Positions 5,901 to 24,228 are shown, numbered from the stretch's first letter. The stretch: 64,000 nucleotides of DNA from an uncultured Candidatus Poseidoniales archaeon (GCA_905182185.1 CAJJAP010000007.1:17461-81460), one strand, 5' to 3'. The notes: generated by a model not told the origin, from the sequence alone. Numbers and translations: made by a program.

Positions 5901-8595
5901 ATTCCCTACAGAACCAAGTCAGTGGTTTGATGGCGATAGTGATGGCTATGGTGACAATTCAACAGGAATTGAACCAGATGCTTGCCCTCTAATATTTGGA
6001 AACTCAACAGAAGCTGGAAGATTAGGCTGTTCTGATATTGATGGTGATGGATATGCTGATGTTGATGACTTATTCCCTAGTGAAAAATCACAATGGAATG
6101 ATAGCGATGCTGACGGCTTTGGCGACAATATTTCAGGAACTAATCCGGATATGTGCCCATCGGTAGCAGGTGACTCTTGGATAGACCGCTTTGGTTGCCC
6201 CGACTCTGATGGAGACGGAGCAAGTGATGCCGATAGCGCTGGAGCAAATGGGCCTATTTGGACAACAGCAGATGGTGCTGACCTTTGGCCTGCTGACTTA
6301 ACCCAATGGGCTGATTCTGATGCTGATGGATTTGGTGATAACTCATCTGGGACCAATGGAGATGATTGCCCAAGTGTAACTGGAAATTCAAGCGCTGATA
6401 GAAATGGTTGCCTCGATACAGATGGCGATGGTTATTCTGATGCGGACATGGGCTGGACTATCAACGATGGTGCTGATGCATTCCCAATGAATTCAGCAAG
6501 TTGGAGCGATTCCGATGGAGATGGAATCGATGATCAAGTCGATGATATGTGCCCTATGGTTTTCGGCAACTCAACCGTTGATAGAATTGGTTGCCCAGAT
6601 ACAGATGGCGATGGTTACTCGGATGTTGATTCTGGCTGGAATACCAGCGATGGTGCTGACGCATTCAAGACCGACCCAACTCAATGGGCAGATGGAGATG
6701 GAGATGGCTATGGTGATAATCCAACAGGTACTCTTGCAGATGATTGCCCTTCAGAAGTTGGTGATTCATGGCAAAACAATACATTGGGATGTCCTGATAT
6801 GGATGATGATGGCTGGGCAGATCAACAAGACTCATTCCCTAATGACATTACTCAATGGCATGATATTGACGGTGATGGCTATGGTGACAATGCTGGAGGA
6901 ACTACTCCAGATGCTTGTACAGGACTTTGGGGTAATTCAACCCAAGGAAATAGGAATGGTTGCCCAGATAGCGATGGCGATGGATGGGATGATGTCATCG
7001 ACCAATTACCTTCCACTCCAAGCCAATGGCTAGACCAAGATGGAGATGGCTATGGCGATAATGCTAGCGGAATATTCTCTGATGCTTGTCCTGGTGTTTT
7101 CGGCAACTCAACAATAGCCGGATATGGTTGCCCTGATACTGATGGAGATGGACTATCTGATGATAATGATGCATTCCCTAACGACCCGACACGTTCACAA
7201 GATTCAGATGGCGATGGCTTTGATGACCTCGAGGATGATTGTCGCTTTGCTGCTGGAAATTCTACAGAAGATAGGTTAGCTTGTCCTGATACTGATGCAG
7301 ACGGTTACTCCGATGTGACAATTGCAGCAGGTAATATCACTGGATGGAATACCTCTGATGGTGCTGATGCTTTCCCTACTGAACCAAGCCAGTGGAATGA
7401 TAGTGATGGGGATGGCTATGGTGATGAACTAAGCGGATTCCAAGGTGATGGTTGTCCAACAGAAGAAGGATATTCCAATATTGGTACATTCGGTTGCCCC
7501 GATGGCGATAACGATGGTGTATCACAAGACGGTGATGCATTCCCTGGTGACGACACTCAATGGGAAGACCAAGATGGAGATGGCTATGGTGATAATCCGA
7601 ATGGTACTACGCCTGATTCCTGTATTCTAATCGTTGGAGTTTCAACAATAGACCGATATGGCTGCCCTGATGAAGACGGAGATGGAGCAAGCGATTTGAA
7701 TGATTTATGGTTAGGAGATAGTTCACAGTACTTTGATTCTGATAATGACACATTTGGTGATTTAGTCGCTGGCACAGACGGTGATTATTGTCCTCAACAA
7801 TTTGGTACAGCAATCCAAGGTGTGATGAGAGGATGTCCTGATGCTGATGGCGATGGCTATGCAGATTCCGATGACGCCTTCCCAAGTGAACATAGTCAGT
7901 GGTTAGACAGTGACGGTGATGGATGGGGCGATAACCAAAGTGCGGGTTCATTCAAACCAGATCATTATCCAAATGACCCAACAAGAAATGCTGGTGAAGC
8001 ACAAATGACCTGTGATCCGAATTCAATTGAATTGGATATAGTTGGTGGAGATTACTTCACCTTCTCCTGTACTGTGACCACCGAGATGGTTGGAGATTTC
8101 ACTGTACGAGTGGAATGGCAAGCAATGACTACAATAAACGCTGCATCTCGTGTTCAAATCGTCAGTTTTTCTGCTACATCTGGACAAACTCAAACAGTTG
8201 TCTTCACTGGTGAAGCAAATATCTACGGCACCCATATACTGGTATTGAAAGCAACTGAACCTGGTTCTGATGTTGCACTTGATACGGTTACAATCAGTTT
8301 GAAAGCAATCGATTCCAGCATATATGCTGAACCATCTAACTCAAATGATAATAGTTACTTTGAGCAGGTACTCAATAATTCACTCGTTCAAGCTGCTATT
8401 GGTGCTTTATCCCTATTCTTTTTGATGGGATTATTGATAATTCGTGGCAAGTCAAACAAAGTAAAGGAAGCCGCTAATAGACAAATCCGAGCAGAGGAGT
8501 TAATTCGTGCCAGAATAGAGAATGGAATGAATCATCCAACCCGAAAGAATTTCGGTTTGGCTGGACAATTACCTCCACTACCGCCACAAAACTAG
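2974..8595 (+). CDS. Secreted subtilisin-like (S8) serine peptidase with about 25 thrombospondin-type-3 Ca-binding repeats and a C-terminal TM anchor
   Basis: Signal peptide MPKHHRLHAMIFTVLLLVQVFAPISFAAEP. S8 triad motifs VTVSDTGLD (nt ~3829), HGTHVAG (~3982), GGTSMSCP (~4663). Long array of DxDxDGxxDxxD repeats (DSDGDGYGDN). Hydrophobic segment AAIGALSLFFLMGLLII followed by a basic tail. Confidence 0.85.
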   Translation: MPKHHRLHAMIFTVLLLVQVFAPISFAAEPNTPKINADTSVDLDLLNTVGIQNSGEISNGWFDSANGVGNIDLLYRDAAVIATENWSAWTGQSNTLDGWYILTHTYPVPTEWFGELADSGIDCFSFLPPNGFHCELEGQTTSELEELDVQGIVKMDSVDKIRENLVRGITGMEMTSVNLYVTDGYASVNLILSGTELPQGIELRDDIVVEYHQERYATVLIQTSALQWLAAQDSIEWIEERPWHILHNDVADTVMGSDLVWNSTLMSGIDANWSGLDGSGVIVTVSDTGLDNGVNNSNMHPDLRDHIVDIVSFPMSAGSTTYCGASSNDDGAEDLDSGHGTHVAGSVLGDGTNTGGAIKGAAPEARLFMQATEQYCDNDNEYYLSGIPSDYTTMFKQAYDNGSRVHTNSWGSDTSGAYNSGSMQADSNSRTYQDMIILFSAGNSGTDASADGEVDLDSLGSPASGKNVLAVGAGENNRPSLNSIWGTGPTPSGAVYSSPISTDKLANNSEGMAAFSSRGPADDNRLKPDITAPGTFILSTKSRSTSSNGWMAYSTNSNYTYMGGTSMSCPLTAGAAALIIQHLIDNEGHSDPNSSLVKAIFTASARDMAGQYGSSTNGAGEAAPNNHEGWGMVDLRSAMNTTWIDGDSVSTSDERGWSFTIPASSPDLRVALSWTDPASTPSASTNLVNDLDLAVKDPSGTWTNLSNNIDNLRGLSFASPVQGTWEVHVIGTNVPTGPQHFALALNLDTTLVNLTQDADFDGIEDSLDDCSSVFGSSTQDRTGCPDSDADGYSNPDASWTVNNGADAFPADISQWADTDFDGYGDNPSGTTPDACTTVAGNSTLDRYGCLDGDGDGFSDAQVTWTVSQGADACDTVSGTSSADRNGCPDTDSDTYSDADLGWTIAAGADAYPNDITQWIDTDGDGYGDNPPPATEGDSCSTISGTSTLDRFGCPDSDSDGYSDADMSWTIASGADAFPTEPSQWFDGDSDGYGDNSTGIEPDACPLIFGNSTEAGRLGCSDIDGDGYADVDDLFPSEKSQWNDSDADGFGDNISGTNPDMCPSVAGDSWIDRFGCPDSDGDGASDADSAGANGPIWTTADGADLWPADLTQWADSDADGFGDNSSGTNGDDCPSVTGNSSADRNGCLDTDGDGYSDADMGWTINDGADAFPMNSASWSDSDGDGIDDQVDDMCPMVFGNSTVDRIGCPDTDGDGYSDVDSGWNTSDGADAFKTDPTQWADGDGDGYGDNPTGTLADDCPSEVGDSWQNNTLGCPDMDDDGWADQQDSFPNDITQWHDIDGDGYGDNAGGTTPDACTGLWGNSTQGNRNGCPDSDGDGWDDVIDQLPSTPSQWLDQDGDGYGDNASGIFSDACPGVFGNSTIAGYGCPDTDGDGLSDDNDAFPNDPTRSQDSDGDGFDDLEDDCRFAAGNSTEDRLACPDTDADGYSDVTIAAGNITGWNTSDGADAFPTEPSQWNDSDGDGYGDELSGFQGDGCPTEEGYSNIGTFGCPDGDNDGVSQDGDAFPGDDTQWEDQDGDGYGDNPNGTTPDSCILIVGVSTIDRYGCPDEDGDGASDLNDLWLGDSSQYFDSDNDTFGDLVAGTDGDYCPQQFGTAIQGVMRGCPDADGDGYADSDDAFPSEHSQWLDSDGDGWGDNQSAGSFKPDHYPNDPTRNAGEAQMTCDPNSIELDIVGGDYFTFSCTVTTEMVGDFTVRVEWQAMTTINAASRVQIVSFSATSGQTQTVVFTGEANIYGTHILVLKATEPGSDVALDTVTISLKAIDSSIYAEPSNSNDNSYFEQVLNNSLVQAAIGALSLFFLMGLLIIRGKSNKVKEAANRQIRAEELIRARIENGMNHPTRKNFGLAGQLPPLPPQN
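5239..7940 (+). repeat. Coding tandem array of TSP3-like calcium-binding repeats (about 25 copies, degenerate at DNA level)
   Basis: Repeated DADGDGYSD / DSDGDGYGDN peptide units encoded by recurring gatggngatggntatg DNA units inside the protease gene. Confidence 0.8.
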
Positions 8596-10827: not shown

Positions 10828-11622
10828 TCAACTATTATTCCTTGTTGAATTGCATCCGATTTGCCATTCTGTCCCAGATGCCATCGCTTCTCTCGTAGCA
10901 TCTAGGAGGTCATCTTCTTCACTACGTATTTGGCCATCACCTCTTAACCAAGAAAGACTAATATGAACCTCTTCATGTAGCCAATTTCTCAATTGCAAAA
11001 TTGATTTTTCAATTGAAATATCACATATCTCTTCCCCAATAGGAATTTCAATTTCACGTGGATTTAATTTCATCCCCATACGCATTGTTTTTTGCACAGA
11101 TTCTTTAGCGGTCCAACTACGAATTGCCATTTCAGGGTTGTTGCGAATCTGTTGTAATTCATCACCGCTTGCCATTAGATCTAATGCATTATCGGCAATT
11201 CCTCTAGCACTTGGTTCAGCATCGATTCCAACGGTCCAACCGGGTGCTATCAGCGCAACATAGGCCCAACCATTACCGTGGCCAATGGAGATACTAGGCA
11301 ATGGCTCATTTCTCCAGATGCCATGAATAAATTCTAAACTCGGCGCTCGAAGTTCATCGCGCCTAACTTCAATCTCATCGATTGAATTGATGCCCCATTG
11401 AATTAGTGAATAATGCAGTAACCAACGTCCGCTCAGATGCTCCATCCGCCTCTTATCAGTTACAAAGGTGGATACTTCATCAGCATCTGCAAGCATTACA
11501 TCCTCTACAGCAAAATCTTGGACCTCACACCTATAGCAGGTAATAACTGGAGCTTCTGGCAATTGAGGTGGTGTTAGTACCTCTACCTTCGGCTGCATAA
11601 TTAGTCCACTCACCCGAATCAA
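10828..11622 (-). CDS. 4'-phosphopantetheinyl transferase (Sfp/PfaE type)
   Basis: PPTase motif 2 GIDAEP and motif 3 WTAKESVQK (WxxKEAxxK). Lies 18 nt downstream of the PKS, on the same strand. Confidence 0.8.
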   Translation of the reverse strand: MIRVSGLIMQPKVEVLTPPQLPEAPVITCYRCEVQDFAVEDVMLADADEVSTFVTDKRRMEHLSGRWLLHYSLIQWGINSIDEIEVRRDELRAPSLEFIHGIWRNEPLPSISIGHGNGWAYVALIAPGWTVGIDAEPSARGIADNALDLMASGDELQQIRNNPEMAIRSWTAKESVQKTMRMGMKLNPREIEIPIGEEICDISIEKSILQLRNWLHEEVHISLSWLRGDGQIRSEEDDLLDATREAMASGTEWQIGCNSTRNNS

Positions 11623-11640: not shown

Positions 11641-14600
11641 TTATCTTGGCAAAGTGAATTGTTGGTATTCAGGGACTGGAGCCATCGCCTTCAGACGTAG
11701 CCCTTTCAATGCTAGTACAGGTGCATCATCATCACCTACGATAACGACATCATGAACAGTAACCCCTGCATCTTCAACTGCGGTACGAATACTACGCAAT
11801 CTCAAAACCTCATCCCTTTCAGGCACCCGCAGATTACAAGTCCAGTCAATACCCACAGGTAGGGAAGAGAAGTTTTCACTTTCCATTGCAACCAAACCGG
11901 CGTTTTGGAATCCTGCTTCAATTAACATTGGTAGTGCCTCTAAGAGAATAGACTCTCCTTGTGCTTCTATCGCCCATTGGTCACTTTGCGGCAATTGATG
12001 TCGCATCAATGCAATCCCATCTACACCAGGCGTAGAATCATTGCCAATGCCTCTAATAATCCCACCATGCGATTGGAATCTAGGTCCATGGAAATATCGA
12101 AGATAGATGAATGCTGGCGTATGTATTAATTGACCCATAGGCGGCGTTCCAATCGCTGGAATCATTGCAATCTCTGCTTCAAGGAATGGGCAAATATCAT
12201 CACAGTCTTCAACTAAGCGAACTGTCGCTTGATGATGTTCTCTTTCGCCGAATACTTCACCCTTTGAATTGGTTAAATCACTTACTAATCGACATTTTAC
12301 CCAAGAGATTTGGCCTTCTTGTTTATCCAAGAGAGATTCTACTCTAACGGTCATTTCACCTTTTAGTAATTTTACCGGCAATCCGAATTTAACATCTTCG
12401 AACCCTGCTAAACTGGTCTGAGGACGTAATAATAACGCATTTTCTGCAAACATTTCCAGTGCCATTACACCTGGGTGGTATGGGACGCCTTCTATTGCAT
12501 GGTCGATTAAGAATGGATGATCTGCTGCACTTAGAGTAGATTGTGTAGTCAAGGTTTGACCCTCGTCTATCCTGTTGACTTTGTCAATGAATGGGAATCG
12601 AGTAGGGTCAGCTATTAATGCCGCCATTTTTGCAGGAAGACGCAAAGGTGCATCTCTAAAAACATCAAAGCGATTCATTATTCCAAGACTACCACAACCG
12701 ATGACTCTTCTTTTACCACCAGCTAGTGCCTCATCAACAAAGATAGAAACTCCTTCTTCAACCGATAGTGTATCGATACCTGCTGCTTCAAAGACCGCTT
12801 CTATTGAACCTCTTGTGGCCATTCCAACATCTCTCCAGCCTGTCCAACCAATTGCAACCGCACGGCAGGTTCCACTTGCTGTCAAGCGCGACATTTCACT
12901 ATCCAGAACACAATTGGCTGCTGCATAATCTGTTTGACCACCGTTTCCAAAGCGGCCTGCTACACTGGTAAAACAGCAAGCGAAGTTAGGATTATCACTA
13001 CCACTTGCGTGGACTGCGCCCAATAATGCCCGCCATCCATCAACCTTGACACGAACTACATTGTTGAAAATTTGATGTGATTTATCATTGACTAATTTGG
13101 AGTCTTCAAGGCCTGCACCATGAAGAATACCGGTTATTTTTCTTCCGAGGTTGGCACCGAGTTCTGCCAAACCTTCTGCATCTGTCACATTGACCGAGCA
13201 ATACTGAGCAGAGTTTCCTGTGCTAGTAATCTGCTGAATTGTATTGTAAATATCAAGTGAGCGAGTATATTTTTGCCACTCCTTATTCCACTCTACCATT
13301 GTGACCTTTCCTTCTTCACTGGCATCGGTCATAGTTTGACGCAATGCCATTTTCTCATCAGTGAGTTGTTGTTGTGACCAGCCAATCCACGATTGACACT
13401 CTTCTATTAGGCTTGAGCGTCCTAGTAAAACAAAGTGTGCGCCTGCATCTGGACTCGCCTTAGAAACGCCGATTATAGATGCTGCTGTAACTCCAGAACC
13501 GCCACCGGATACTATCCAAGTATCCGCATTGGTTAGTGGTTCTCTTGGTGATTCTAAATCTTCAGCAAATGCGACTAGAGTCCACCTTCTCAAATCTCGA
13601 TCGATTGCAATTTCAATATCGCCACCAAGTTCAAACAAATCCTCGTCAATAATTTGAGCTGCTTGGTCTGCTTGCAAGATTAATTCAGGATGTAGGTCAA
13701 AGGCTCTACAACGCAAGTGTGGTTGTTCAAAGGAATATGACTTGGTAACGCCTGTTGCCGCACTTTGTAGTGAATTGAATCTCTCTCCACGATTGCCATG
13801 GCGGCCATCCAGTGCGGTGATTGAAGCAACTATTCCAGTCGATTGACTTGCAAGTTTACTATCCAACCCTTTCAACAATGAAAAGAAACCATGCGCTGAC
13901 ATAGCAATTTGGCTCGAAGGATAAGCGTCATCTGACCAAGATTCACTAGCCAATTTCAAGGAGGCCATATGGAGGACTGCTGTAATATTTTGTTGCTTTA
14001 ACTGCTCACATACTTCCTCAAGATGCTGGGAATTTTCTGGGTCGCATCTGTAAACAGTTCGACCCGATTCTTCTTGGGTTGACATATCTCTGATTGCAGA
14101 TTCAAAACCGATCAATACCGTTTTCAATCCACGTTGCTCCATTCTTTGAGCGAATGCTTCGGAGATCCCCCAGCCATCAACTGTGATGACAACTGTACCA
14201 TCAAGAGAAATCGGTTGGCTAGTCCCTAGGCATTCTTCAATTTCTATTTGCCATCTTCGCGTTGTTGAAACAATATCGCTGTTGGTTTGTTGTATTGCCG
14301 CCGTCTCCTCTACCTGTTGCGGTTGTGGCTGAGCCTCACCAACCACTGATTCAACAACACTATCGCCACCTACCATCTTGGTGATGTAGGCGCTAAAGTG
14401 ATTCAAAGTCGGGTGGTCGCTGAGTACGAAATCATCGTCGACTGGTAGTGAGAAAATTTCTCTAATATCCCCCATTATCTCTGCTTGCTTGACCGTATCA
14501 ATCCCCAATTCACCTTCTAGGTCTTGGTCCATTTCAATGAAATCTGCAGGATAGCCGGTGTGTTTGACTACGACTTCAACTAATTTCTCCACAATATCGG

Positions 14601-17600
14601 CTGAAGCGGCTGAAGAAGGAACTGAGGCTGGTACTGGAGATGGACTCGATTTCGCTGCGGCTTTCTGCTCTACAGGTTGTGGAGTTGGAACTGTAATTGG
14701 GGTTTGTGCAACCACTTCACCACCCATCATCCGAGAGATATAGGCAATCATGTGATTCAGAGTTGGATAATCAGATAAGACAAAGTCATCGTCGACTGGT
14801 AGGGAAAACTTCTCACGGATATCACCCATAATCTCTGCTTGCTTAACAGTGTCAATTCCCAATTCACCTTCGAGGTCTTGGTCTAATTCAATAAAATCAG
14901 CAGGATAACCAGTATGAGCGACTACAACTTCTACAACAAGTGGAGTTATTTCCGATGTTTCTAAATCAGTAGCTAATTTAACAGCCGATTGTGGCTTACT
15001 AATTTCGACTGGAGCTTGTGGTTGTGCTAGCGTCTCTATTGCTGCTTCTGCTGCTGGTGCGGCAATTACTGTTGCGGCACCTCCTGTCATTTTGTTGATG
15101 TATCCGATCATATGATTCAATGTTGGATAATCCGAAAGAACAAACTCGTCGTCAACTGGTAGGGAAAACTTTTCTCGAATATCGCCCATAATCTCTGCTT
15201 GCTTGACCGTATCAATGCCCAATTCACCCTCTAGGTCTTGGTCTAATTCAACAAAGTCTGCTGGATATCCTGTGTGATTAACCACTACTTCGATGACAGT
15301 GGTTACAATATCACCTGATACGGTTGCAGCGGCTACTGGAGCCGGTTTGTTTTGTTGAACGACTGGCTTTGAAACTGGCATTGATGCTACTGCAGGCGCT
15401 GAGATTGAAACTGGTACTGGATCTACGGCATTTACAACCACCGGAGCAGGGTTTGGTTTTCCTTCAAAATCGGCGGTAATAGGCCAACTTTCTCCTTGTA
15501 CACCGCCGTGCAATTTATCATCAGCATCAACATAGCAGACCAATTTATTTTGTAATACTCGGAATACTACGTCATCAGTCCCCGCTAATTCTCTATTCCA
15601 GGCAAGGAATTTGGCACCATCGATTCTCTCCCCCACAAACGGAGTTCTCTTTACTAGTGAAAGGGCTATTTGTGAGCCAAATCCTGCTGCAAAGCGAAGT
15701 CCATAGCGCAGATTTGGATATTCTCCACCTGTGGATAGATTCAAGTCTCCTAATTCCGGATCTTTTTCCTTGTGATTAGCGATAGGAGGAATTCTTCCTG
15801 TTTTCATCCCGTATAGCATGCTAGCATCTTCAATTCCAACTGCCATCGGATGTCCAGTGAACCCTTTAGTATTGGAAATTACAAGGGAATCCGTACTATC
15901 ACCGAATGTATCGCGTAGTGCTTTAACCTCGGATTGAGCGCTTCCTCCTCGGGCCGGAGTGAATGTTTCATGGCTAAAGAAGGCTGTATCAGATGCGAAT
16001 TCATGCCGGTCTATTCCCCAGCGCTTTTCCATATCTCCAACGAAATTATTGACAACTCCTGCGACGTGTTCAACATCTAAGCGAGTTCCATGGAAGGCTG
16101 AGTTTGCAGTGGTTGAACCTAATAATTCTGCAATAGGTTGAACTCCACGCTTAGCCGCTTCAGAACTTCTCTCCACTACGAAAGCAGCAGCACCCATCCC
16201 TAAGATGAGCCCATTGCGTCGACGGTCAAACGGTAATGCTGTTTCTTCTACTACATTGCCGGTTGCTGCTGCACCTGATGCTGCGAATCCTGCTCCGACC
16301 CATTCCCACATATCATCGCCGGTAACGTCGTCACCAGAGATGATTACCACTCGGTCTACGCGGTCTGCTGCAAGCCAATCTTCGGCAACACCAAACGCTG
16401 CAGTAGCTGATGCGCAGGCGAGATTGATTGTTGTATTTGGCCCACGAATGCCAGTATACTGTGCAAATTGTGAATGACCCATATTGAGGGTTTGGAATAG
16501 ATATCTGCGGTCAAATTGTCCGTCACCATCATCGCCATTATTCTTGGCATGTTTCTTGGCCATCTGCATTCCAGGGAAACAAGAGGAGAATACAATTCCA
16601 GTTCGGTCTCTCTGCACTTGAGGGATTTGCCAACTTCTGATCAACCTAAGTCCACCTTTGCCAACTTGCTCAACAGGAGTTAGTGGTATGGCAGCATCAC
16701 GGAGTGCTAGTAATCCGGCTGCTACGGCCAACTGTGTGGAAATATCCCATGCCAAAACTACCTTCGGGTCTATACCAAATTCTTCTGAGATGTCAAAGGC
16801 AGATTTGAGACCCGCTAATTGTGGAATATCACTGAATTCAGTTGCCTTTTCCATATTGACTGAACCATCTCTCCCTTTGATTAGACGAACTAAGTTCTTA
16901 TCGAGCAGTCTTTGTTTGTATTCATCTGAAACTTCGCTAATACAAGTTTCACCACGGACAAGGCGTTCAAATGTATCCTCGTCGAATACTTTCTTTCCAC
17001 CAGGAAGGCCAAGAGAAACACCTGTGATCACATATGGGTCTGCTCTACGGTTGGCCATGGTATCATTTCCAGTAGCGACTACTGTAGTTCCTTGCTGTGA
17101 AATATTGGCACTAGGCAATTTAGTTAAATTGGTCTTGGCAGTCCATTGAGAAGGGACTGATGCAATCCAATGCGCTATATCCTCTACAGTTTGTGCACTG
17201 CTGACATCCACATCCGCCATGGTTTGGCATTCACTGGCAATTGTTTGTAGCAGATTAGCAATGGCAGAATCTGCAAGACCAAGCCCAAGACGGAGATTGA
17301 CCATCCCATTACAGAACCTTGCTGGATAACCGCAAAGTGCTGATAGACGGTCTCCAAGGTAAGCATTCTTTGCTTCAGTAGCAATTTGCTCAGGGTCTTT
17401 TTGGGTGGAAACTGTTGTGGTTTGTGCTACTGTTGTAACGGTAGGTTGAGCCGCACCACTAGGAAGTGGGCGGGCTGCTGTACGCAAAGATTCCAAAGAA
17501 GAACTTGTTTGCGAGGTCGAAATTATTGCTGCTTGATGTGCTTCAATCGGTCCAGCACGGAACGCTTCTGTCAATACAGGAGAATCTCCAGTTGGCCACT

Positions 17601-20532
17601 GCGGCATCCTACCCGCAAGAGCAAGCATTCCTAGAGCGGAAATAAATGAGGCAATTCCTCCCTGTTTTGGATGGTTAGTCATTATTGGTAGCGATGGTTG
17701 GTCCTCAAGAATTTGAGTTGCAAACATACTCAATGCTCGCTTTGGCCCGACTTCAATGAAGACTCGTGCACCTGCTGAATACATTGTTTGAATTTGAGTT
17801 GTCCACTCGACCGCAGATGCCATTTGAGGTGCTAATTGAGTAAGTATTGATTGCTTAGCATCTCCTTCTCCGGACATTGGATAAAATTGGCCATCTACAT
17901 TTGCTGTTATTGGAATCGCTGGCCATCGTATTTCTAGCCCTTCTAAGAACCGGCGTAGCGGTTCATTGGCCGGTGCTACAATCTTGGAATGGAAGGCGTG
18001 ACTTGTTGCTAGGGTCACGGATTGGAACCCACGATTTTCAAATTCAGCCATAGCCGCCTTTACCGGTTCGGTTTCACCAGCGATGACCGTCATCTTTGGC
18101 GAGTTCTTATTGGCTGCGATGACATATCCATCGACCTCTTCAATAATTGCTGCAACATCATCGTATGGTGCGCTAACACTAGCCATCAAACCTTTGTCAA
18201 TTACTTCAACTGCGCCCATTTCAGTTCCTCTCGCTGCAGCTGCACGCAGTGCACCATCCATATCGAGAATCCCCGCTGCCATCAGTGCCGCATATTCTCC
18301 CAAAGAGTGTCCAGCAACCATATCTGGTTTGTGGCCATGGTCATTCAGCGCCTTCTCAATTGCCAGATCTGCAGTTAACATTGCAGGTTGAGTATATTCT
18401 GTTTGCTTCAATTTATGTTCCGCTTCAAGCAATTGTTGTTTATTCAATCCCGAACGAAGAATGAATGATGACAAACTTTCACCGTTCAAGACCTCGGTCA
18501 TGGTAACATCGGATTGCTTCCAAACCTCTTGCACAGAAGTATATCTCTGCCATAGGTCGTGTGTCATCCCAACATACTGACTTCCTTGGCCAGGATACAT
18601 GTGGGCAACCTTGGCTTGTGCTGGTAGCGCAGCATCATCGGTTAGTAGAATTCCTTGCGCTTGTAAGAATCCCCATTTCTCTTTATCATCCATCGCTTTT
18701 ACTGCAAGGGCACAACGTTTGTTGAATTCAGCCCACGAGGTTGCAATAAGTGCCATCCTAATCTTATCTGAAGATGAATAATCTCCACTGATTGATTCGA
18801 GCGCTTGTGAAAGACGAAGTCCTCTTGGGTCCTCATCGAAATTAGGACCTTGGAAAGAAATAGATTCTATTTGTTGCTTAATTTGGCCAATATCGCTGCC
18901 AGAAAGCAATAACATTCCACCTTCAATTTGCTTTAATTGTTGATGTGTCATTGAAGGTGTTGCCGTGGAATCCAATATAGAGGCTGCAACCGCCTCGCCT
19001 GTTTGTTTATTTTGCGAACCATCCAGAGGCTGAGAATATGCATCCCATCTCAGTTGCCACTGCTGTGCCAGTGGTGCGTGGAAATCCGGTTCATACCCTT
19101 CGAGAGCGACGTGAAAATTAGTGCCACCAAAACCGAATGCGGAAACTCCGGCTCGGCGCGGATTTGACTCTGGCCTAGGCCATTCCATTGCTTTGGTTGG
19201 TACGAAAAATGGTATGCTTCCCCAATCAACTGTTGGATTTGGATTTTCGAATCCTGCACTAGGAGGAATTGTTCTGTGGTGAAGTGCAAGAATGGATTTC
19301 ATAATTCCTGCGATTCCTGCTGCTGCCTTTAGATGCCCAATCTGTGATTTTATTGAACCGACTGCGATATGGTCGCCACCATCAAATCCAGTCCAAAGAC
19401 GTGATAGCGTTGATAATTCTGTAGCATCTCCAACTTTGGTAGAGGTCCCGTGAGCTTCAACCAACTGAACGCTGGATGCATCATATCCTGCTTGGTTGTA
19501 AGCACGTGCCATCGCTTGTACTTGCCCTCTTTGACTTGGAGCGGTAATACCCTTGCCTCGGCCATCTGATGAGCCACCGATTCCCCTGATTACCGCTTTA
19601 ATTTCATCACCATCACGGATTGCATCTCCTAGGCGCTTGAGAAGTAATACACCTGCGCCTTCACCCATTACGAATCCATTCGCCTTAGCATCAAAAGGAG
19701 TGGAATGTGTAGCGGATAATGCGCCAATGGCACTGAACTTAGCAAATGTAGCAGGATCCATTGTTCGGTCACTCGCTCCTGCTAGCATTGTATCAACCTG
19801 TCTTGTTTGCAGCAATCTACAAGCATCCAATACGGCTGCCATAGACGATGCACAGGCAGCATCCATTGCGTGATTCGGACCTTGTAAATCCAATAGATTT
19901 GCGACCCTTCCAGATACCACGTTAGCCAATTCTCCTGGCATAGTATCTTCGTCAATCCTCGGGGTACCTTTTACCACATCTTCAATGAATGAATCCATGT
20001 TTGAATCTGGTAAGCCGTATTGCGATGCCAATTGTTTGGTGTGGTTAGACCAAACACGGATATTTGACATATTACGATTTTCTCCGCCTAAGGCATTTGC
20101 AAAAACTACTCCGGTTCTAACTCGGTCAATATCTTTTGATTCCCCATCAAAGCCAGCATCTTCTATTGCATCGGCTGATACTGCGACTGCCCATTGCTGG
20201 CATATGTCAATCTGAGGAAGAGTTCCAGGTGGTTGCCTCCATCTCCTCCAATCAAATTCATATCCAGTGACCAATGCACCGATTTTTGAATAGGTGAAGC
20301 CTTCCTCCACAGCCCCGGGACCACCTTGTCTCCAGAAATGATTTGAAGGGCCCGGCCATCTCCCTTCTGGAATTTGTTTGATGCTGACTTTAGCATCGAT
20401 AATATTCTGCCAAAATTGGCCCGCATTTTCTGCATCTGGCATTATAGCGGCTAGACCTATTACTGCAATCGGTTCAAAGGGCCCTTGCTCAAGACCTTCA
20501 CATTCCTTTCCATCTGCAGTAGTAAGAGACAT
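11641..20532 (-). CDS. Type I polyketide / PUFA-synthase-like megasynthase (PfaA-like), domain order KS-AT-KS-ACPx3-KR-DH
   Basis: KS1: DAACASS (Cys aa 227), EAHGTSTKVGD, SIKSQIGH. AT: GQGSQYVGM and GHSLGEY. KS2: NLACASATAA (Cys aa 1373), AFHGT, NTKGFTGH. Three near-identical ACP repeats (GELGIDTVKQAEIMG). KR: GGGSGV Rossmann fold, YAAANCVLD. DH: HAIEGVPYHP (HxxxGxxxxP). Confidence 0.95.
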   Translation of the reverse strand: MSLTTADGKECEGLEQGPFEPIAVIGLAAIMPDAENAGQFWQNIIDAKVSIKQIPEGRWPGPSNHFWRQGGPGAVEEGFTYSKIGALVTGYEFDWRRWRQPPGTLPQIDICQQWAVAVSADAIEDAGFDGESKDIDRVRTGVVFANALGGENRNMSNIRVWSNHTKQLASQYGLPDSNMDSFIEDVVKGTPRIDEDTMPGELANVVSGRVANLLDLQGPNHAMDAACASSMAAVLDACRLLQTRQVDTMLAGASDRTMDPATFAKFSAIGALSATHSTPFDAKANGFVMGEGAGVLLLKRLGDAIRDGDEIKAVIRGIGGSSDGRGKGITAPSQRGQVQAMARAYNQAGYDASSVQLVEAHGTSTKVGDATELSTLSRLWTGFDGGDHIAVGSIKSQIGHLKAAAGIAGIMKSILALHHRTIPPSAGFENPNPTVDWGSIPFFVPTKAMEWPRPESNPRRAGVSAFGFGGTNFHVALEGYEPDFHAPLAQQWQLRWDAYSQPLDGSQNKQTGEAVAASILDSTATPSMTHQQLKQIEGGMLLLSGSDIGQIKQQIESISFQGPNFDEDPRGLRLSQALESISGDYSSSDKIRMALIATSWAEFNKRCALAVKAMDDKEKWGFLQAQGILLTDDAALPAQAKVAHMYPGQGSQYVGMTHDLWQRYTSVQEVWKQSDVTMTEVLNGESLSSFILRSGLNKQQLLEAEHKLKQTEYTQPAMLTADLAIEKALNDHGHKPDMVAGHSLGEYAALMAAGILDMDGALRAAAARGTEMGAVEVIDKGLMASVSAPYDDVAAIIEEVDGYVIAANKNSPKMTVIAGETEPVKAAMAEFENRGFQSVTLATSHAFHSKIVAPANEPLRRFLEGLEIRWPAIPITANVDGQFYPMSGEGDAKQSILTQLAPQMASAVEWTTQIQTMYSAGARVFIEVGPKRALSMFATQILEDQPSLPIMTNHPKQGGIASFISALGMLALAGRMPQWPTGDSPVLTEAFRAGPIEAHQAAIISTSQTSSSLESLRTAARPLPSGAAQPTVTTVAQTTTVSTQKDPEQIATEAKNAYLGDRLSALCGYPARFCNGMVNLRLGLGLADSAIANLLQTIASECQTMADVDVSSAQTVEDIAHWIASVPSQWTAKTNLTKLPSANISQQGTTVVATGNDTMANRRADPYVITGVSLGLPGGKKVFDEDTFERLVRGETCISEVSDEYKQRLLDKNLVRLIKGRDGSVNMEKATEFSDIPQLAGLKSAFDISEEFGIDPKVVLAWDISTQLAVAAGLLALRDAAIPLTPVEQVGKGGLRLIRSWQIPQVQRDRTGIVFSSCFPGMQMAKKHAKNNGDDGDGQFDRRYLFQTLNMGHSQFAQYTGIRGPNTTINLACASATAAFGVAEDWLAADRVDRVVIISGDDVTGDDMWEWVGAGFAASGAAATGNVVEETALPFDRRRNGLILGMGAAAFVVERSSEAAKRGVQPIAELLGSTTANSAFHGTRLDVEHVAGVVNNFVGDMEKRWGIDRHEFASDTAFFSHETFTPARGGSAQSEVKALRDTFGDSTDSLVISNTKGFTGHPMAVGIEDASMLYGMKTGRIPPIANHKEKDPELGDLNLSTGGEYPNLRYGLRFAAGFGSQIALSLVKRTPFVGERIDGAKFLAWNRELAGTDDVVFRVLQNKLVCYVDADDKLHGGVQGESWPITADFEGKPNPAPVVVNAVDPVPVSISAPAVASMPVSKPVVQQNKPAPVAAATVSGDIVTTVIEVVVNHTGYPADFVELDQDLEGELGIDTVKQAEIMGDIREKFSLPVDDEFVLSDYPTLNHMIGYINKMTGGAATVIAAPAAEAAIETLAQPQAPVEISKPQSAVKLATDLETSEITPLVVEVVVAHTGYPADFIELDQDLEGELGIDTVKQAEIMGDIREKFSLPVDDDFVLSDYPTLNHMIAYISRMMGGEVVAQTPITVPTPQPVEQKAAAKSSPSPVPASVPSSAASADIVEKLVEVVVKHTGYPADFIEMDQDLEGELGIDTVKQAEIMGDIREIFSLPVDDDFVLSDHPTLNHFSAYITKMVGGDSVVESVVGEAQPQPQQVEETAAIQQTNSDIVSTTRRWQIEIEECLGTSQPISLDGTVVITVDGWGISEAFAQRMEQRGLKTVLIGFESAIRDMSTQEESGRTVYRCDPENSQHLEEVCEQLKQQNITAVLHMASLKLASESWSDDAYPSSQIAMSAHGFFSLLKGLDSKLASQSTGIVASITALDGRHGNRGERFNSLQSAATGVTKSYSFEQPHLRCRAFDLHPELILQADQAAQIIDEDLFELGGDIEIAIDRDLRRWTLVAFAEDLESPREPLTNADTWIVSGGGSGVTAASIIGVSKASPDAGAHFVLLGRSSLIEECQSWIGWSQQQLTDEKMALRQTMTDASEEGKVTMVEWNKEWQKYTRSLDIYNTIQQITSTGNSAQYCSVNVTDAEGLAELGANLGRKITGILHGAGLEDSKLVNDKSHQIFNNVVRVKVDGWRALLGAVHASGSDNPNFACCFTSVAGRFGNGGQTDYAAANCVLDSEMSRLTASGTCRAVAIGWTGWRDVGMATRGSIEAVFEAAGIDTLSVEEGVSIFVDEALAGGKRRVIGCGSLGIMNRFDVFRDAPLRLPAKMAALIADPTRFPFIDKVNRIDEGQTLTTQSTLSAADHPFLIDHAIEGVPYHPGVMALEMFAENALLLRPQTSLAGFEDVKFGLPVKLLKGEMTVRVESLLDKQEGQISWVKCRLVSDLTNSKGEVFGEREHHQATVRLVEDCDDICPFLEAEIAMIPAIGTPPMGQLIHTPAFIYLRYFHGPRFQSHGGIIRGIGNDSTPGVDGIALMRHQLPQSDQWAIEAQGESILLEALPMLIEAGFQNAGLVAMESENFSSLPVGIDWTCNLRVPERDEVLRLRSIRTAVEDAGVTVHDVVIVGDDDAPVLALKGLRLKAMAPVPEYQQFTLPR
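11644..12585 (-). other. PKS domain: PKS-type dehydratase (approximate)
   Basis: HPFLIDHAIEGVPYHPG (HxxxGxxxxP hot-dog motif) at aa ~2678. Confidence 0.7.
12733..14235 (-). other. PKS domain: ketoreductase (approximate)
   Basis: VSGGGSGVTAAS NADPH fold; catalytic YAAAN motif (Tyr aa 2536). Confidence 0.7.
14374..15300 (-). other. PKS domains: three tandem ACP repeats, each with Thr at the Ser attachment position (approximate)
   Basis: Repeat HTGYPADF(V/I)E(L/M)DQDLEGELGIDTVKQAEIMGDIRE(K/I)FSLPVDD(D/E)FVLSD(Y/H)PTLNH. Thr codon acg confirmed on the DNA for all three copies (e.g. 15208-15210). The repeats are also near-identical at DNA level. Confidence 0.8.
15643..17040 (-). other. PKS domain: second ketosynthase retaining the Cys-His-His triad (approximate)
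   Basis: NLACASATAAFG, AFHGTRLD, ISNTKGFTGHPMAVG. It is not a CLF-type inactive KS. Confidence 0.75.
17683..18615 (-). other. PKS domain: acyltransferase (approximate)
   Basis: GQGSQYVGM; active site GHSLGEY (Ser aa 743); AFHS. Confidence 0.85.
19093..20475 (-). other. PKS domain: ketosynthase 1 (approximate)
   Basis: Cys codon at 19852-19854 (DAACASS). Both catalytic His motifs present. Confidence 0.85.
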
Positions 20533-20543
20533 AGAAACACCAC

Positions 20544-21338
20544 CTAGTTGTCCATAATACTTTGTGGAACCATCGTAATTGAGTAGCCAGCATCAACATA
20601 GATACATTGGCCGGTCACACCGCTTGAAAGAGGACTTGCTAACCAAATTGCTGCACCAGCAACATCGGATTGTGTCACATTGCGGCGCAAAGGCGCATTG
20701 GCCTCTACGTGGTCTAGGATTTTATCAAAGCCAGGAATTCCTCCAGCAGCTAGAGTTGGAATCGGGCCAGATGAAATTGCATTGATTCTGTGACCATCTG
20801 GGCCTAAGTGGCAAGCGAGTTCACGAGTCCAACATTCCAATGCGGCTTTGGCCATTGACATTATTCCATAATTTGGAACGAAACGATTTGCTGCTGCATA
20901 TGTTAGAGTAATTGTTGATGAATTTTCATTCAGATAAGGCAATGCAAATTTCAAACATCTTTGCAATGAATTCGCAGATATTGTCATCGCTGTGTTAATA
21001 TCTTGATCTTCAACGAATAATATCGGTCTGTCAAAACATGAACGAGGAGCGAAACCGATCGCATGAATCAAAATATCCGCCTTCAGGCCCGGATTCTCGG
21101 CGGAAAATGCATCGAAAAATTCTTGGGTATCTGCATCGGTTGCAACATCGAGAGGATAGAAACCTGCTATCTCTGGCAATTTATCCTTTAATTGGAAAAC
21201 ACGGCTCATAAATCTCTTCTGATAACCGAGATACAGCGTGACGCCTGACGCTGCTAAATGTTGGCATATCGCCCAAGCGATTGAATCCTCACTTGCTACA
21301 CCAAAAACAAATGCGGTTTTTCCTTGTAGTCCGAGCAT
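20544..21338 (-). CDS. FabI-like enoyl-[acyl-carrier-protein] reductase (SDR); candidate trans-acting ER for the PKS
   Basis: N-terminal GKTAFVFGVASEDSIAWAI (FabI SIAxGIA-type fold). Catalytic YGIMSMAKAALE (Yx6K). Lies 11 nt upstream of the PKS on the same strand. Confidence 0.8.
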   Translation of the reverse strand: MLGLQGKTAFVFGVASEDSIAWAICQHLAASGVTLYLGYQKRFMSRVFQLKDKLPEIAGFYPLDVATDADTQEFFDAFSAENPGLKADILIHAIGFAPRSCFDRPILFVEDQDINTAMTISANSLQRCLKFALPYLNENSSTITLTYAAANRFVPNYGIMSMAKAALECWTRELACHLGPDGHRINAISSGPIPTLAAGGIPGFDKILDHVEANAPLRRNVTQSDVAGAAIWLASPLSSGVTGQCIYVDAGYSITMVPQSIMDN

Positions 21339-21563: not shown

Positions 21564-22652
21564 TCACAGGTCATTTAGGAATGAATCTAAATCATCTTCT
21601 TCATCATTTAAATCGTCGAACATATCATCAAATTCATCTAAATCTTCAACAACTGGTTTAGTCACTTCTTCTATCTCTGGGAGATCGATAGCATGTACCG
21701 TTGCATCGTCAGAAGATCTCCTACTGATTACCTTTAGGCCCAACACTAGAATGAATATCCCGAGAATACCAGCGCCAATAATAGCGCCATATTTCTTCAG
21801 ATCCTCGCTACTAAGTTCATCAAGTCCACCCAATCCAGAGATTTCATTAGGTTTTTCTACTACCAGAGTAATTAATATTTCACTGAACTCCGCATTATCA
21901 TCATTGGCACTTTCTGCACGTATTATCATCTGAACTCTTATCTCTTCGGTGACTTTTGAAGGCGCACTTATTGTCAGGTCACGAATTGAAGAAACTCCTC
22001 CTGCGGCTACATCTTCAGCAACAAATGAGCCCAATGGGAAACTAAAACCACTTTCAATTAGTTCTGCCTCATTGGCAATGGATACTCTAATTTTATCTTC
22101 ATCATTACCATAGTTGGAAAATTGGAATGATATGACTCTCTGTTCATCCAATTCCAAAGTTCTAGCGCTTTTGTCGCTCATCTCTAATTCGACCATCCCA
22201 TAAGTAGAAACGGTGAAATCTCCTTCATATGAAGCGTTTACATTTAGTTGATCCATTGGGAAGATGCCACCCCATGTATCAACTTGAGCGTTAAGTGTAA
22301 ATGAATAACTGGTATCTGCCGATAATTTTGTCGGACCTGAAAAAGTGATGGTGAATTCCTCTTCCTCACCCGCTTCTATTTCGAACGAATCTTCTGACAA
22401 AATCATATCTATATTATTCGCATCCCACTCTTTTTCAACTGAAATTGTCTCCGCCAATGATGAAGGATTACTTACTATACAAATCAATTCCACCGGCTCG
22501 TAGTATGATGGGTGAACTTCCATTACCGGGTCAGTACCGCAATCAATCTCAACGCTAGGTCCAGTTGGCACATCTTGAGCCGAAGCCATTAAAGACAATG
22601 CTGGAAGCATAAAAAATGCCAGTGCAAAAGTTAGAATCTGACCCTTCCGCAT
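21564..22652 (-). CDS. Secreted single-pass membrane protein with an acidic C-terminal tail, hypothetical
   Basis: The ORF-track start at 22778 is GTG and overlaps the upstream TatD gene. The internal ATG at 22652 gives a classic signal peptide (MRKGQILTFALAFFMLPALSLMASAQD). C-terminal TM helix, then a D/E-rich tail. Confidence 0.5.
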   Translation of the reverse strand: MRKGQILTFALAFFMLPALSLMASAQDVPTGPSVEIDCGTDPVMEVHPSYYEPVELICIVSNPSSLAETISVEKEWDANNIDMILSEDSFEIEAGEEEEFTITFSGPTKLSADTSYSFTLNAQVDTWGGIFPMDQLNVNASYEGDFTVSTYGMVELEMSDKSARTLELDEQRVISFQFSNYGNDEDKIRVSIANEAELIESGFSFPLGSFVAEDVAAGGVSSIRDLTISAPSKVTEEIRVQMIIRAESANDDNAEFSEILITLVVEKPNEISGLGGLDELSSEDLKKYGAIIGAGILGIFILVLGLKVISRRSSDDATVHAIDLPEIEEVTKPVVEDLDEFDDMFDDLNDEEDDLDSFLNDL

Positions 22653-22720
22653 GCCTCTCACCGGTTGTGGGTTGAAGCACTCTTTCATCAATGTAGTGGG
22701 TAACAGAGCCCCAAAAACAC

Positions 22721-23679: not shown

Positions 23680-24228
23680 TCAAATCCTTTGGATGAAATA
23701 ACCTTTTTCAGCGAATTTGTTTTTCCAATATACTGCTGCCATTGCAACCATATTAGGAGAATTTGCTCCAAGTGCAATACAGCGACCGTTTGGCCAGATG
23801 TTGAGGGTGATGTCGTGCCTTGAGTCCTCAACGATAGTGCAGCCAAGACGAGCATCATATTGCGCCTCTCCTGCCCCGACATCTCCGATTATAGATTCAA
23901 CTGCGATAGTTTCTTCAAAATTGAATGAAGCGACCATCGGGCCTAATTCAGTAGTAAGCCCAGAACTATCTAGACCCATTTGTAAAAGAAACTCCTTTGC
24001 AGCTGCCCGAGCAGTTTCAATGCGCTGAGTGCCATGAACTACTAACTTCCCATCCGCATCGATTACGATAGTTGCACGAGGTGCATCTAAGACTTTGATT
24101 ACTACTCCACCTGTTGCTGTTCCACCCAGTTGTGCAACAACTGCATCTTGGTCAACTGGTGTTCGCGTAATAAAACGAACCAGTTGATTTTCAACTCGCA
24201 CATCGATACCTTTTGGTGCCATAATCAC
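23680..24228 (-). CDS. Divergent TBP-like protein (two TBP-type repeats)
   Basis: 182 aa with an internal duplication. The repeat ends DGKLVVHGTQRIETARAAAKEF and NGRCIALGANSPNMVAMAAVY align to the archaeal TBP pattern SGK(L/I)V(V/C)TGAKS...A(V/L). The size is typical of archaeal TBP, but the DNA-contacting residues are poorly conserved. Confidence 0.4.
   Translation of the reverse strand: MIMAPKGIDVRVENQLVRFITRTPVDQDAVVAQLGGTATGGVVIKVLDAPRATIVIDADGKLVVHGTQRIETARAAAKEFLLQMGLDSSGLTTELGPMVASFNFEETIAVESIIGDVGAGEAQYDARLGCTIVEDSRHDITLNIWPNGRCIALGANSPNMVAMAAVYWKNKFAEKGYFIQRI

What the first reader, a model, noticed from the sequence alone, without database searches (positions are those of the whole stretch)
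14374..15300. All three tandem ACP domains carry Thr in place of the conserved phosphopantetheine-attachment Ser
Each ACP repeat reads ...DLEGELGIDTVKQAEIMG..., where canonical ACPs have D-S-L with the Ser bearing the 4'-phosphopantetheine. The Thr codon (acg) is present in all three copies on the DNA, so this is not a single sequencing error. Either the dedicated neighbouring PPTase modifies Thr, which would be highly unusual, or the carrier domains are modified differently or are inactive. The three ACP repeats are also near-identical at nucleotide level (~230-bp units), which is a risk for assembly collapse and a substrate for copy-number variation.
Basis: seen in the sequence. Interest (0 to 1): 0.65.

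Follow-up and report, generated by a model that had tools for sequence, protein, structure and literature searches.

The report
Threonine-type acyl carrier domains, archaeal synthase
A giant fatty-acid/polyketide-type synthase of a marine archaeon carries threonine instead of the normally universal serine at the cofactor-attachment site of all its carrier domains. This is the conserved signature of a large, apparently uncharacterised enzyme family with its own cofactor-loading enzyme, not a sequencing error.

Summary
The core observation is real. A 2963-aa minus-strand gene (11641-20532) encodes KS-AT-(ACP-like)-KS2-ACPx3-KR-DH. All three ACPs read LGIDTVKQAEIMG, with Thr exactly where solved ACPs have the phosphopantetheine-bearing Ser, at the first residue of helix II.

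The Thr codons are ACG, ACT and ACG, not three ACG. The repeats are only 72-76% identical in DNA, with saturated synonymous sites, so assembly collapse is not a concern.

The window is archaeal (Marine Group II, Poseidoniales). All 370 ACP domains in 120 orthologues carry Thr. In 80 genome loci chosen through the KS2 domain, 201 ACPs have Thr (all four codons) and 6 have Ser.

A word-free search separates Thr arrays (KS2 architecture) from classical PfaA Ser arrays, and no protein mixes the two. Rare Ser-bearing archaeal orthologues keep the same adjacent PPTase lineage. One myxobacterial synthase fuses a PPTase to Thr-only carriers.

Best reading: Thr is the phosphopantetheine acceptor of a dedicated Sfp-type PPTase. 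This is inferred, not shown. No paper describing it was found.

The parts
11641..20532 (-). Megasynthase gene, 2963 aa: KS1-AT-(ACP-like)-KS2-ACPx3-KR-DH
   Evidence: ORF and translation. Pfam finds ketoacyl-synt (two stretches), Acyl_transf_1, PP-binding x3, KR and PKS_DH_N. The best NCBIfam match is PfaA TIGR02813 at 887 bits, below its 1010 cut-off.
19087..20475 (-). KS1 domain (aa 20-482), with Cys-His-His motifs DAACASS / EAHGTST / SQIGH
   Evidence: Pfam; motifs read from the translation.
17704..18600 (-). Acyltransferase domain (aa 645-943)
   Evidence: Pfam Acyl_transf_1 and NCBIfam FabD-like match.
17128..17385 (-). Degenerate ACP-like linker domain (aa ~1050-1135) with no conserved Ser or Thr at the attachment position (Ala in this genome)
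   Evidence: Alignment of 20 orthologues: GLG[LM][S/T/A][D/E/P/A]x.
15433..17040 (-). KS2, a second ketosynthase domain (aa ~1165-1700) and the hallmark of this family. The active-site Cys and both His are invariant.
   Evidence: Second ketoacyl-synt stretch. Alignment A2 has invariant C214, H362 and H402. KS2 co-occurs with Thr arrays.
15088..15315 (-). ACP1 core (aa 1740-1815); Thr1775 codon ACG at 15208-15210
14728..14955 (-). ACP2 core (aa 1860-1935); Thr1895 codon ACT at 14848-14850
   Evidence: In the AF2 model, helix II starts at this Thr, and the fold matches real ACPs.
14374..14601 (-). ACP3 core (aa 1978-2053); Thr2013 codon ACG at 14494-14496
12733..14235 (-). Ketoreductase region (aa ~2100-2600)
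   Evidence: Pfam KR and adh_short.
11641..12564 (-). PKS-type dehydratase domain (aa 2657-2963)
   Evidence: Pfam PKS_DH_N.
10828..11622 (-). Sfp-type 4'-phosphopantetheinyl transferase. The likely start is the ATG at 11598, giving 256 aa. Motifs GIDAE and WTAKESVQK are present.
   Evidence: Pfam ACPS. AF2 model pLDDT 88.6. Foldseek matches AASDHPPT, Sfp and PptT. The gene is syntenic downstream of the synthase in archaeal loci. Its homologues are Poseidoniales PPTases.
20544..21338 (-). FabI-type enoyl-ACP reductase immediately upstream; the probable trans-acting ER
   Evidence: Pfam adh_short_C2 and NCBIfam FabI models.

Best explanation
The three tandem carrier domains are functional ACPs. 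Their 4'-phosphopantetheine arm is attached to Thr (O-phosphopantetheinyl-threonine) instead of Ser, by the dedicated Sfp-type PPTase encoded immediately downstream.

They belong to an iterative PfaA-like (PUFA-synthase/FAS-like) megasynthase of a Marine Group II archaeon, with the domain order KS-AT-KS2-ACPn-KR-DH. A FabI-type enoyl reductase is encoded next door. The inferred cycle is:
- AT loads malonyl units onto the pantetheine thiols.
- KS1 and KS2 condense.
- KR, DH and the trans ER process the chain.
- Tandem ACPs raise throughput, as in PUFA synthases.

Thr is the ancestral, selected state of this whole KS2-containing family in archaea and in several bacterial phyla. It is not a defect.

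Shown here: position equivalence, the ACP and PPTase folds, conservation, synteny, PPTase fusion, and Ser<->Thr interchange among orthologues. Inferred: that Thr is actually modified, and what the product is (probably a fatty-acyl or secondary-lipid chain).
For: (1) Thr occupies the exact PPant-Ser position in sequence and in structure, as the first residue of helix II.

(2) Conservation. 370/370 ACPs in 120 Poseidoniales orthologues at 68-100% identity have Thr. In 80 genome loci picked by the KS2 domain rather than by the ACP, 201 ACPs have Thr and 6 have Ser. The Thr codons are ACG 101, ACC 49, ACT 30 and ACA 21, although Ser is one nucleotide away.

(3) Within this gene the three copies are saturated at synonymous sites but conserved in protein.

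(4) A word-free HMMER search of 1.84 billion representatives shows arrays that are either all Thr or all Ser, never mixed. Thr goes with the KS2 architecture and Ser (LGIDSI) with classical PfaA. With the S/T column masked, 75 Thr and 63 Ser representatives need only 3 state changes on an ACP tree. The +1 residue covaries: DTV versus DSI.

(5) Ser-bearing archaeal orthologues (L003/P0368, L053, L058, L059) sit inside or beside Thr clades. P0368 is 47-49% identical over its whole length and has a nearly identical ACP (LGVDSVKQAEIM). Its adjacent PPTase is 37% identical to the window's. So the same system works with either residue.

(6) The PPTase lies directly downstream in virtually all archaeal loci with sufficient flank. 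It has the Sfp-type fold and catalytic motifs. In a Myxococcota MAG (L073), one ORF encodes KS-AT-KS2-3xACP(all Thr)-KR-DH-PPTase.

(7) The only other ACP-like segment of the synthase has no conserved hydroxyl residue. The Thr domains are therefore the only plausible PPTase substrates in the protein.
Against: No chemical evidence exists for a Thr-linked pantetheine, here or in any paper I could find. E. coli ACP S36T is reported as unmodifiable and non-functional (PMC3340395), so generic PPTases discriminate against Thr. I found no convincing specificity-determining residue that separates Thr-associated from Ser-associated PPTases. The rest of the archaeal genome was not available, so another carrier protein serving as the PPTase's real substrate cannot be excluded. 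The trees are quick neighbour-joining trees without support values.
Confidence: 0.7

Rival explanations
1. The Thr domains are never pantetheinylated. They are structural or scaffolding pseudo-carriers. The synthase would use a separate Ser-type ACP in trans, or CoA-bound substrates, and the PPTase would serve that other carrier.
For: E. coli ACP S36T cannot be modified. Archaea are generally described as making or handling fatty acids without ACP; this rests on my own knowledge of the literature and was not checked here. Most of the genome lies outside the window and was not inspected.
Against: The Thr column is invariant under strong purifying selection across archaea and at least four bacterial phyla. 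Copy number is kept at two to six, as in productive PUFA-synthase ACP arrays. No Ser-type carrier is encoded in the window cluster. The small extra carrier protein in bacterial locus L002 also counts as Thr-type (label TTTT). A PPTase is fused to a Thr-only synthase. Orthologues with Ser are otherwise almost identical in the ACP.
Confidence: 0.1
2. Thr is modified, but not with standard phosphopantetheine. The divergent PPTase might transfer a different CoA-derived group, or the chain might be carried as an oxygen ester directly on Thr.
For: The PPTase is very divergent, with no PDB hit by sequence. MGIIa versions carry an invariant C-terminal extension (E228, L231, L232, T235, M239, W245, G248, C249) not seen in Sfp.
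Against: The PPTase keeps the Sfp-type fold and the Mg/CoA-binding motifs GIDAE and W-x-KE-x-x-K. Both KS domains keep the Cys-His-His triad that acts on thioesters. Ser-type orthologues use the same PPTase lineage.
Confidence: 0.07
3. Sequencing, consensus-calling or assembly artefact: Ser miscalled as Thr, or repeats collapsed.
For: None was found.
Against: The three copies use two different Thr codons. Proteins 99-100% identical come from many separate contigs. Hundreds of independent assemblies show Thr with all four codons. The repeats share at most 26 identical bases in a row.
Confidence: 0.01

Closest known systems
PfaA subunit of bacterial polyunsaturated-fatty-acid (PUFA) synthases (TIGR02813)
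   Same: KS-AT-tandem ACPs-KR-DH order. The ACP motif is very similar (LGIDSIK... versus LGIDTVKQAE...). It is the best NCBIfam hit (887 bits).
   Different: The score is below the family cut-off of 1010. An extra, catalytically intact KS2 domain and a degenerate ACP-like segment sit between AT and the ACPs. Thr replaces the attachment Ser, and Val replaces Ile at +1. No PfaB, PfaC or PfaD partners were found among the window ORFs scanned; a FabI-type ER is present instead. The host is an archaeon.
Sfp-type (group II) phosphopantetheinyl transferases such as Sfp, PptT, AASDHPPT and PfaE/HetI, dedicated to secondary-metabolite synthases
   Same: Two-lobed Sfp fold (Foldseek E down to 5e-11 against 2cg5, 4mrt and PptT). 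Catalytic motifs are present. The gene is next to its synthase.
   Different: Only 15-18% identity to solved PPTases, with no sequence-level PDB hit. The presumed acceptor is Thr. MGIIa members have a conserved C-terminal extension.
Enediyne PKSE-type iterative synthases (KS-AT-ACP-KR-DH-PPTase); comparison from my own knowledge of that family
   Same: Some bacterial members of the Thr family (L073) end in an integrated PPTase domain after KR-DH.
   Different: PKSE has one Ser-type ACP and no KS2. No sequence membership test was run.
E. coli AcpP S36T mutant
   Same: The same Ser-to-Thr replacement at the attachment site.
   Different: The engineered mutant is reported as unmodifiable and non-functional (PMC3340395). 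Here Thr is the naturally selected state and comes with its own PPTase.

Membership tests
Acyl carrier protein / PP-binding domain (PF00550) | Sequence match to the family profile above its threshold | tested here: met
   PF00550, 81.3 bits against a cut-off of 20.8, three stretches.
Acyl carrier protein / PP-binding domain (PF00550) | Helical-bundle ACP fold with the attachment residue at the N-terminus of helix II | tested here: met
   AF2 pLDDT 90.7, with helix II starting at residue 41, the Thr. TM 0.82-0.86 and rmsd 1.4-1.7 A to solved ACPs.
Acyl carrier protein / PP-binding domain (PF00550) | Conserved Ser in the D-S-[LIV] motif as the phosphopantetheine acceptor | tested here: not met
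   Thr in all three domains and in nearly the whole KS2 family.
Acyl carrier protein / PP-binding domain (PF00550) | Actual 4'-phosphopantetheinylation (holo form) | not testable with these tools
   Needs mass spectrometry of protein co-expressed with the PPTase.
PfaA, PUFA synthase subunit (TIGR02813) | Whole-protein score above the curated cut-off | tested here: not met
   887.2 bits against a cut-off of 1010.1.
PfaA, PUFA synthase subunit (TIGR02813) | Architecture KS-AT-ACPn-KR(-DH), with ACPs directly after AT | tested here: not met
   An extra KS2 domain and an ACP-like segment are inserted between AT and the ACPs.
PfaA, PUFA synthase subunit (TIGR02813) | Partner genes pfaB/C/D (AT, KS-CLF-FabA-type DH, PfaD-type ER) in the cluster | tested here: not met
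   The neighbours are a FabI-type reductase and a PPTase. No KS-CLF/FabA-DH or PfaD-type protein was found among the window ORFs scanned.
Sfp-type (group II) PPTase | Pseudo-dimeric two-lobe fold of about 230 aa | tested here: met
   AF2 pLDDT 88.6. Top 33 Foldseek hits are Sfp-type PPTases, with E 5e-11 to 3e-6.
Sfp-type (group II) PPTase | Catalytic motifs (V/I)G(I/V)D-x-E and W-x-x-KE-(A/S)-x-x-K | tested here: met
   VGIDAEP and WTAKESVQK in the window protein. Both are conserved across archaeal and bacterial system-associated PPTases.
Sfp-type (group II) PPTase | Transfers PPant from CoA to a carrier-protein Ser | not testable with these tools
   The activity and its acceptor residue (Thr here) need biochemistry.

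The most novel reading that the evidence does not exclude
These are natural O-(4'-phosphopantetheinyl)-threonine carrier proteins, an attachment chemistry that I found described in no paper. They are the hallmark of a widespread, uncharacterised KS-AT-KS2-ACPn-KR-DH synthase family with a co-evolved PPTase. A KS2 relative was found in contigs of at least 578 GTDB species genomes, from Poseidoniales, Myxococcota, Acidobacteriota, Acidimicrobiia and Calditrichota. In Marine Group II archaea this would be an ACP-dependent fatty-acid or secondary-lipid synthase. That bears on the unresolved question of what lipids these very abundant, uncultured archaea make.
Probability: 0.6. Interest if true: 0.82.

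Novelty: new variant of a known kind. Interest (0 to 1): 0.72.

Why it matters
The attachment Ser is treated as an invariant of carrier-protein biochemistry. Annotation rules, PPTase assays and mutant controls all assume it; the S36T mutant, for example, is used as a dead ACP.

A large natural family that selects Thr, together with its own PPTase, would extend the chemistry of the phosphopantetheine modification. It could also offer an orthogonal ACP/PPTase pair for engineering, and it marks an unstudied synthase family.

The host matters too. Marine Group II archaea are among the most abundant planktonic archaea and remain uncultured. They are reported to lack the archaeal glycerol-1-phosphate backbone enzyme while having G3P dehydrogenase and PlsC-like genes (PMC6461757, PMC6962369). 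A conserved ACP-dependent megasynthase with its PPTase and a FabI-type reductase next to it makes the question of whether they synthesise fatty acids directly testable by heterologous expression. A biotin carboxylase gene also lies about 16 kb away in the same window.

Tried and rejected
- **Tandem-repeat and assembly-collapse idea.** TRF found no long period and the copies are only 72-76% identical, so this was rejected.
- **A hidden Ser-type carrier between AT and KS2.** The segment looks ACP-like, but the attachment position is Ala here and S/T/A in orthologues, so this was rejected.
- **Bias check.** The first ACP search relies on shared 5-mers, which could favour GIDTV. I repeated it with a word-free HMMER search and with loci chosen by the KS2 domain. 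The result held.
- **PPTase specificity residues.** I compared Thr-associated with Ser-associated PPTases. L003 and L053 have ISTS/ISTT where the others have I(G/S)H(S/G), but L059 does not, so there is no convergent signal and no claim.
- **Sequence search of the PPTase against the PDB** found nothing. Only the fold comparison worked.
- **Literature.** Searches for GIDTV, threonine phosphopantetheinylation, Ser replaced by Thr in ACP domains, and Poseidoniales or MGII with PKS, ketosynthase, ACP or pfaA found nothing on this feature. The library lacks most subscription journals, so absence is not proof.
- **Cluster-member names** gave only generic annotations such as 'SDR family oxidoreductase' and 'beta-ketoacyl synthase N-terminal-like'.
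Full report
**What is there.** The flagged interval lies inside one long minus-strand ORF, window 11641-20532, of 2963 aa. Pfam finds two ketosynthase stretches, an acyltransferase, three PP-binding (ACP) domains, a ketoreductase and a PKS-type dehydratase. Read from the translation and from orthologue alignments, the order is:

- KS1 (aa 20-482)
- AT (645-943)
- a degenerate ACP-like segment (~1050-1135)
- KS2, a second ketosynthase (~1165-1700)
- ACP1, ACP2, ACP3
- KR
- DH

A FabI-type enoyl reductase lies directly upstream (20544-21338). A 4'-phosphopantetheinyl transferase lies directly downstream (10828-11622). The best curated family is PfaA of PUFA synthases (TIGR02813), at 887 bits against a cut-off of 1010.

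The window also encodes a TATA-binding protein (23680-24228) and a Cdc6/Orc1 (40771-42057). Near-identical proteins are named Candidatus Poseidoniales or Poseidoniaceae. The source is therefore a Marine Group II archaeon.

**Checking the observation.** All three ACPs contain DLEGELGIDTVKQAEIMG, with Thr at residues 1775, 1895 and 2013. A search against solved structures aligns this Thr with the phosphopantetheinylated Ser of real ACPs, namely PigH LGIDSV and Streptomyces FAS ACP DVDSL. An AlphaFold model of ACP2 (pLDDT 90.7) places the Thr as the first residue of helix II. The model superposes on solved ACPs at TM 0.82-0.86 and rmsd 1.4-1.7 A. So the central observation is correct.

Two details are not.

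- The codons are ACG, ACT and ACG, not three ACG.
- The repeats are not near-identical in DNA. The 76-codon cores are 72-76% identical in nucleotides and 80-84% in protein. They differ at 27-31 synonymous codons per pair, dS is saturated, dN is 0.11-0.17, and the longest shared exact run is 17-26 nt. Tandem Repeats Finder sees no long period.

These are old duplicates held by purifying selection. They are not a collapse-prone array.

**Is Thr an accident of this genome?** No.

- A whole-protein search returned 7926 scored hits. The best 120 are orthologues of ~2930 aa at 68-100% identity. Every one of their 370 ACP motifs is ELGIDTVK.
- That search depends on shared 5-mers, so I ran two controls that do not depend on the ACP motif.
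- First control: a word-free HMMER search of 1.84 billion cluster representatives with the tri-ACP segment. It gave 5342 hits at E<=1e-3 and 690 at E<=1e-30. Among the top representatives, arrays are either entirely LG[IV]DT[VI] or entirely LG[IV]DSI, and none is mixed.
- Domain mapping shows that Thr arrays go with the KS-AT-KS2-ACPn-KR-DH architecture. Ser arrays go with classical PfaA, KS-AT-ACPn-KR.
- With the Ser/Thr column masked, a tree of 138 ACP domains (75 Thr, 63 Ser) needs only three state changes. The neighbouring residue covaries: DTV versus DSI.
- Second control: I scanned one genome per GTDB species using an alignment of the KS2 domain only. At least 578 stretches encode a relative. 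The best 80 loci come from Poseidoniales and from Myxococcota, Acidobacteriota, Acidimicrobiia/Actinomycetota and Calditrichota MAGs.
- In those loci, 201 ACP motifs carry Thr (ACG 101, ACC 49, ACT 30, ACA 21) and 6 carry Ser (TCG 4, TCA 2).

All four Thr codons are used, and Ser is a single substitution away. Selection therefore acts on Thr itself.

**The informative exceptions.** The Ser-bearing loci are all archaeal: L053 (UBA596), L058 and L059 (UBA558, UBA182), plus the metagenomic L003/P0368. A Heimdallarchaeota MAG protein (P0332) also combines Ser with the KS2 architecture.

On a KS2 neighbour-joining tree, L053 and L003 nest among Thr-type lineages with one or two ACPs (including Thalassarchaeaceae-labelled MAGs), and L058 and L059 branch beside them. 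This suggests at least two independent switches.

P0368 is 47-49% identical to the window protein across its length. Its ACPs differ little beyond the switch: DQDLEGELGVDSVKQAEIM versus DQDLEGELGIDTVKQAEIM. It is followed by a PPTase 37% identical to the window's. Orthologous synthase-PPTase pairs thus operate with either residue. That is what one expects if Thr plays the same role as Ser.

**The PPTase.** The downstream ORF has the motifs VGIDAEP and WTAKESVQK. It passes the Pfam ACPS threshold weakly and has no sequence-level PDB hit. A model built from 43 homologues (pLDDT 88.6) matches Sfp-type PPTases: AASDHPPT, Sfp, PptT and PcpS, with E from 5e-11 to 3e-6.

A PPTase ORF sits directly downstream of the synthase in virtually every archaeal locus with enough flank. 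One is also nearby in many bacterial loci.

In a Myxococcota MAG (L073), one 3167-aa ORF encodes KS-AT-KS2-three PP-binding domains (all Thr)-KR-DH-4PPT_N-ACPS. In L057 the PPTase is fused to KR-DH. A PPTase fused to a protein whose only carriers have Thr is strong circumstantial evidence that Thr is its acceptor.

The only other ACP-like segment in the archaeal protein has Ala at the attachment position here, and S/T/A in orthologues. It is not a hidden Ser carrier.

**Mechanism, and how sure.** Best explanation, about 0.7: the Thr hydroxyl receives 4'-phosphopantetheine from CoA through the dedicated Sfp-type PPTase. The resulting thiols carry malonyl and growing acyl chains between AT, the two Cys-His-His ketosynthases, KR, DH and the trans FabI.

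The product is unknown. The enzyme set is complete for iterative, reducing, fatty-acid-like synthesis. The same window also encodes a biotin carboxylase (36304-37644).

Why Thr is preferred is not established. Possibilities are insulation from housekeeping PPTases or hydrolases, and greater stability of a secondary-alcohol phosphodiester. These are my speculation. Arrays being all Thr or all Ser fits co-adaptation with the partner PPTase.

Against the explanation: nobody has shown a Thr-linked pantetheine, and E. coli ACP S36T is reported as unmodifiable (PMC3340395).

Rivals are pseudo-carriers that use a trans ACP (~0.1), a non-standard modification (~0.07), and artefact (~0.01).

**Comparison with known systems.** It works like a PfaA-type PUFA or secondary-lipid synthase with a dedicated Sfp-type PPTase. 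It is not a PfaA member by the curated score, by architecture (KS2 insertion) or by cluster content. Its ACPs also fail the defining Ser feature.

Source databases give only generic names. I found no paper on this feature, although the searchable library omits most subscription journals. [quoted passage not shown]

**Verdict.** This is a real and non-trivial feature. It is a family-wide, selected Ser-to-Thr change at the carrier-protein attachment site, in an uncharacterised PfaA-like synthase family that is universal or nearly so in the Poseidoniales sampled and widespread in several bacterial phyla. I rate it a new variant of a known kind. Interest is 0.72, because the key claim (Thr pantetheinylation) is unproven but can be tested with one co-expression and mass-spectrometry experiment.

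Noticed in passing
window 17128-17385 (-), aa ~1050-1135 of the synthase: There is an ACP-like segment between AT and KS2 (YLGDRLSALCGYPARFC...GLGLADSAIANLL...). Its attachment-site position is Ala here and S/T/A in orthologues. It looks like a degenerate carrier or docking domain conserved across Poseidoniales.
   Followed up: partly
window 10831-10920 (-), C-terminus of the PPTase (aa ~225-250): MGIIa PPTases carry a C-terminal extension beyond the Sfp fold. It includes an extra helix at aa 227-240 and invariant residues E228, L231, L232, T235, M239, W245, G248 and C249 (EDDLLDAT...W-x-VGC). Its function is unknown. It is absent from the shorter PPTases of the archaeal lineages with one or two ACPs and from the bacterial PPTases.
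   Followed up: partly
window 45317-46336 (-): This ORF combines a cytidylyltransferase-like domain with DUF359. From my own knowledge, these correspond to archaeal phosphopantetheine adenylyltransferase and dephospho-CoA kinase. If so, it is a fused enzyme for the last steps of CoA synthesis, and CoA is the donor of the pantetheine arm.
   Followed up: no
window 36304-37644 (-): Biotin carboxylase (acetyl-CoA carboxylase-type), a plausible source of malonyl-CoA for the synthase. Bacterial locus L002 likewise has carboxylase genes next to the Thr-ACP cluster.
   Followed up: no
window 25042-30930 (-), 2974-8595 (+), 21564-22778 (-): Three large, probably surface-associated proteins flank the synthase. 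One is 1962 aa with no Pfam match. One is 1873 aa with a subtilase S8 domain. One is 404 aa and matches the 'choice-of-anchor T' family.
   Followed up: no
window 51739-52605 (-), 59411-60310 (+): Enoyl-CoA hydratase and 3-hydroxyacyl-CoA dehydrogenase genes (beta-oxidation type) lie in the same window as the synthase. The genome therefore carries both degradative and putative synthetic fatty-acid enzymes.
   Followed up: no
L037 (CAXRAI010000082.1, labelled Salinimicrobium sp. MAG): This contig carries an archaeal-type synthase whose KS2 is 76% identical to the window's. It groups tightly with a Poseidoniales MAG (L036). The contig is probably mis-binned into a bacterial MAG.
   Followed up: partly
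P0332 (MCY3414055.1, Candidatus Heimdallarchaeota MAG) and loci L053, L058, L059, L003: These are Ser-bearing versions (LGIDSV, LGVDSV or LGIDSI) of the same KS2-type synthase, found in other archaeal lineages including an Asgard MAG. They are natural controls for the Thr/Ser switch.
   Followed up: partly
L001, L002 (bacterial metagenome contigs): In bacteria the same system is split into separate genes: acyl-CoA dehydrogenase-like, KS-AT, KS2, multi-ACP (Thr), a small 111-115-aa protein and KR-DH, with a PPTase nearby. In L001 it sits next to CDP-alcohol phosphatidyltransferase, LPG-synthase-like and glycosyltransferase genes, which hints at a lipid product.
   Followed up: partly
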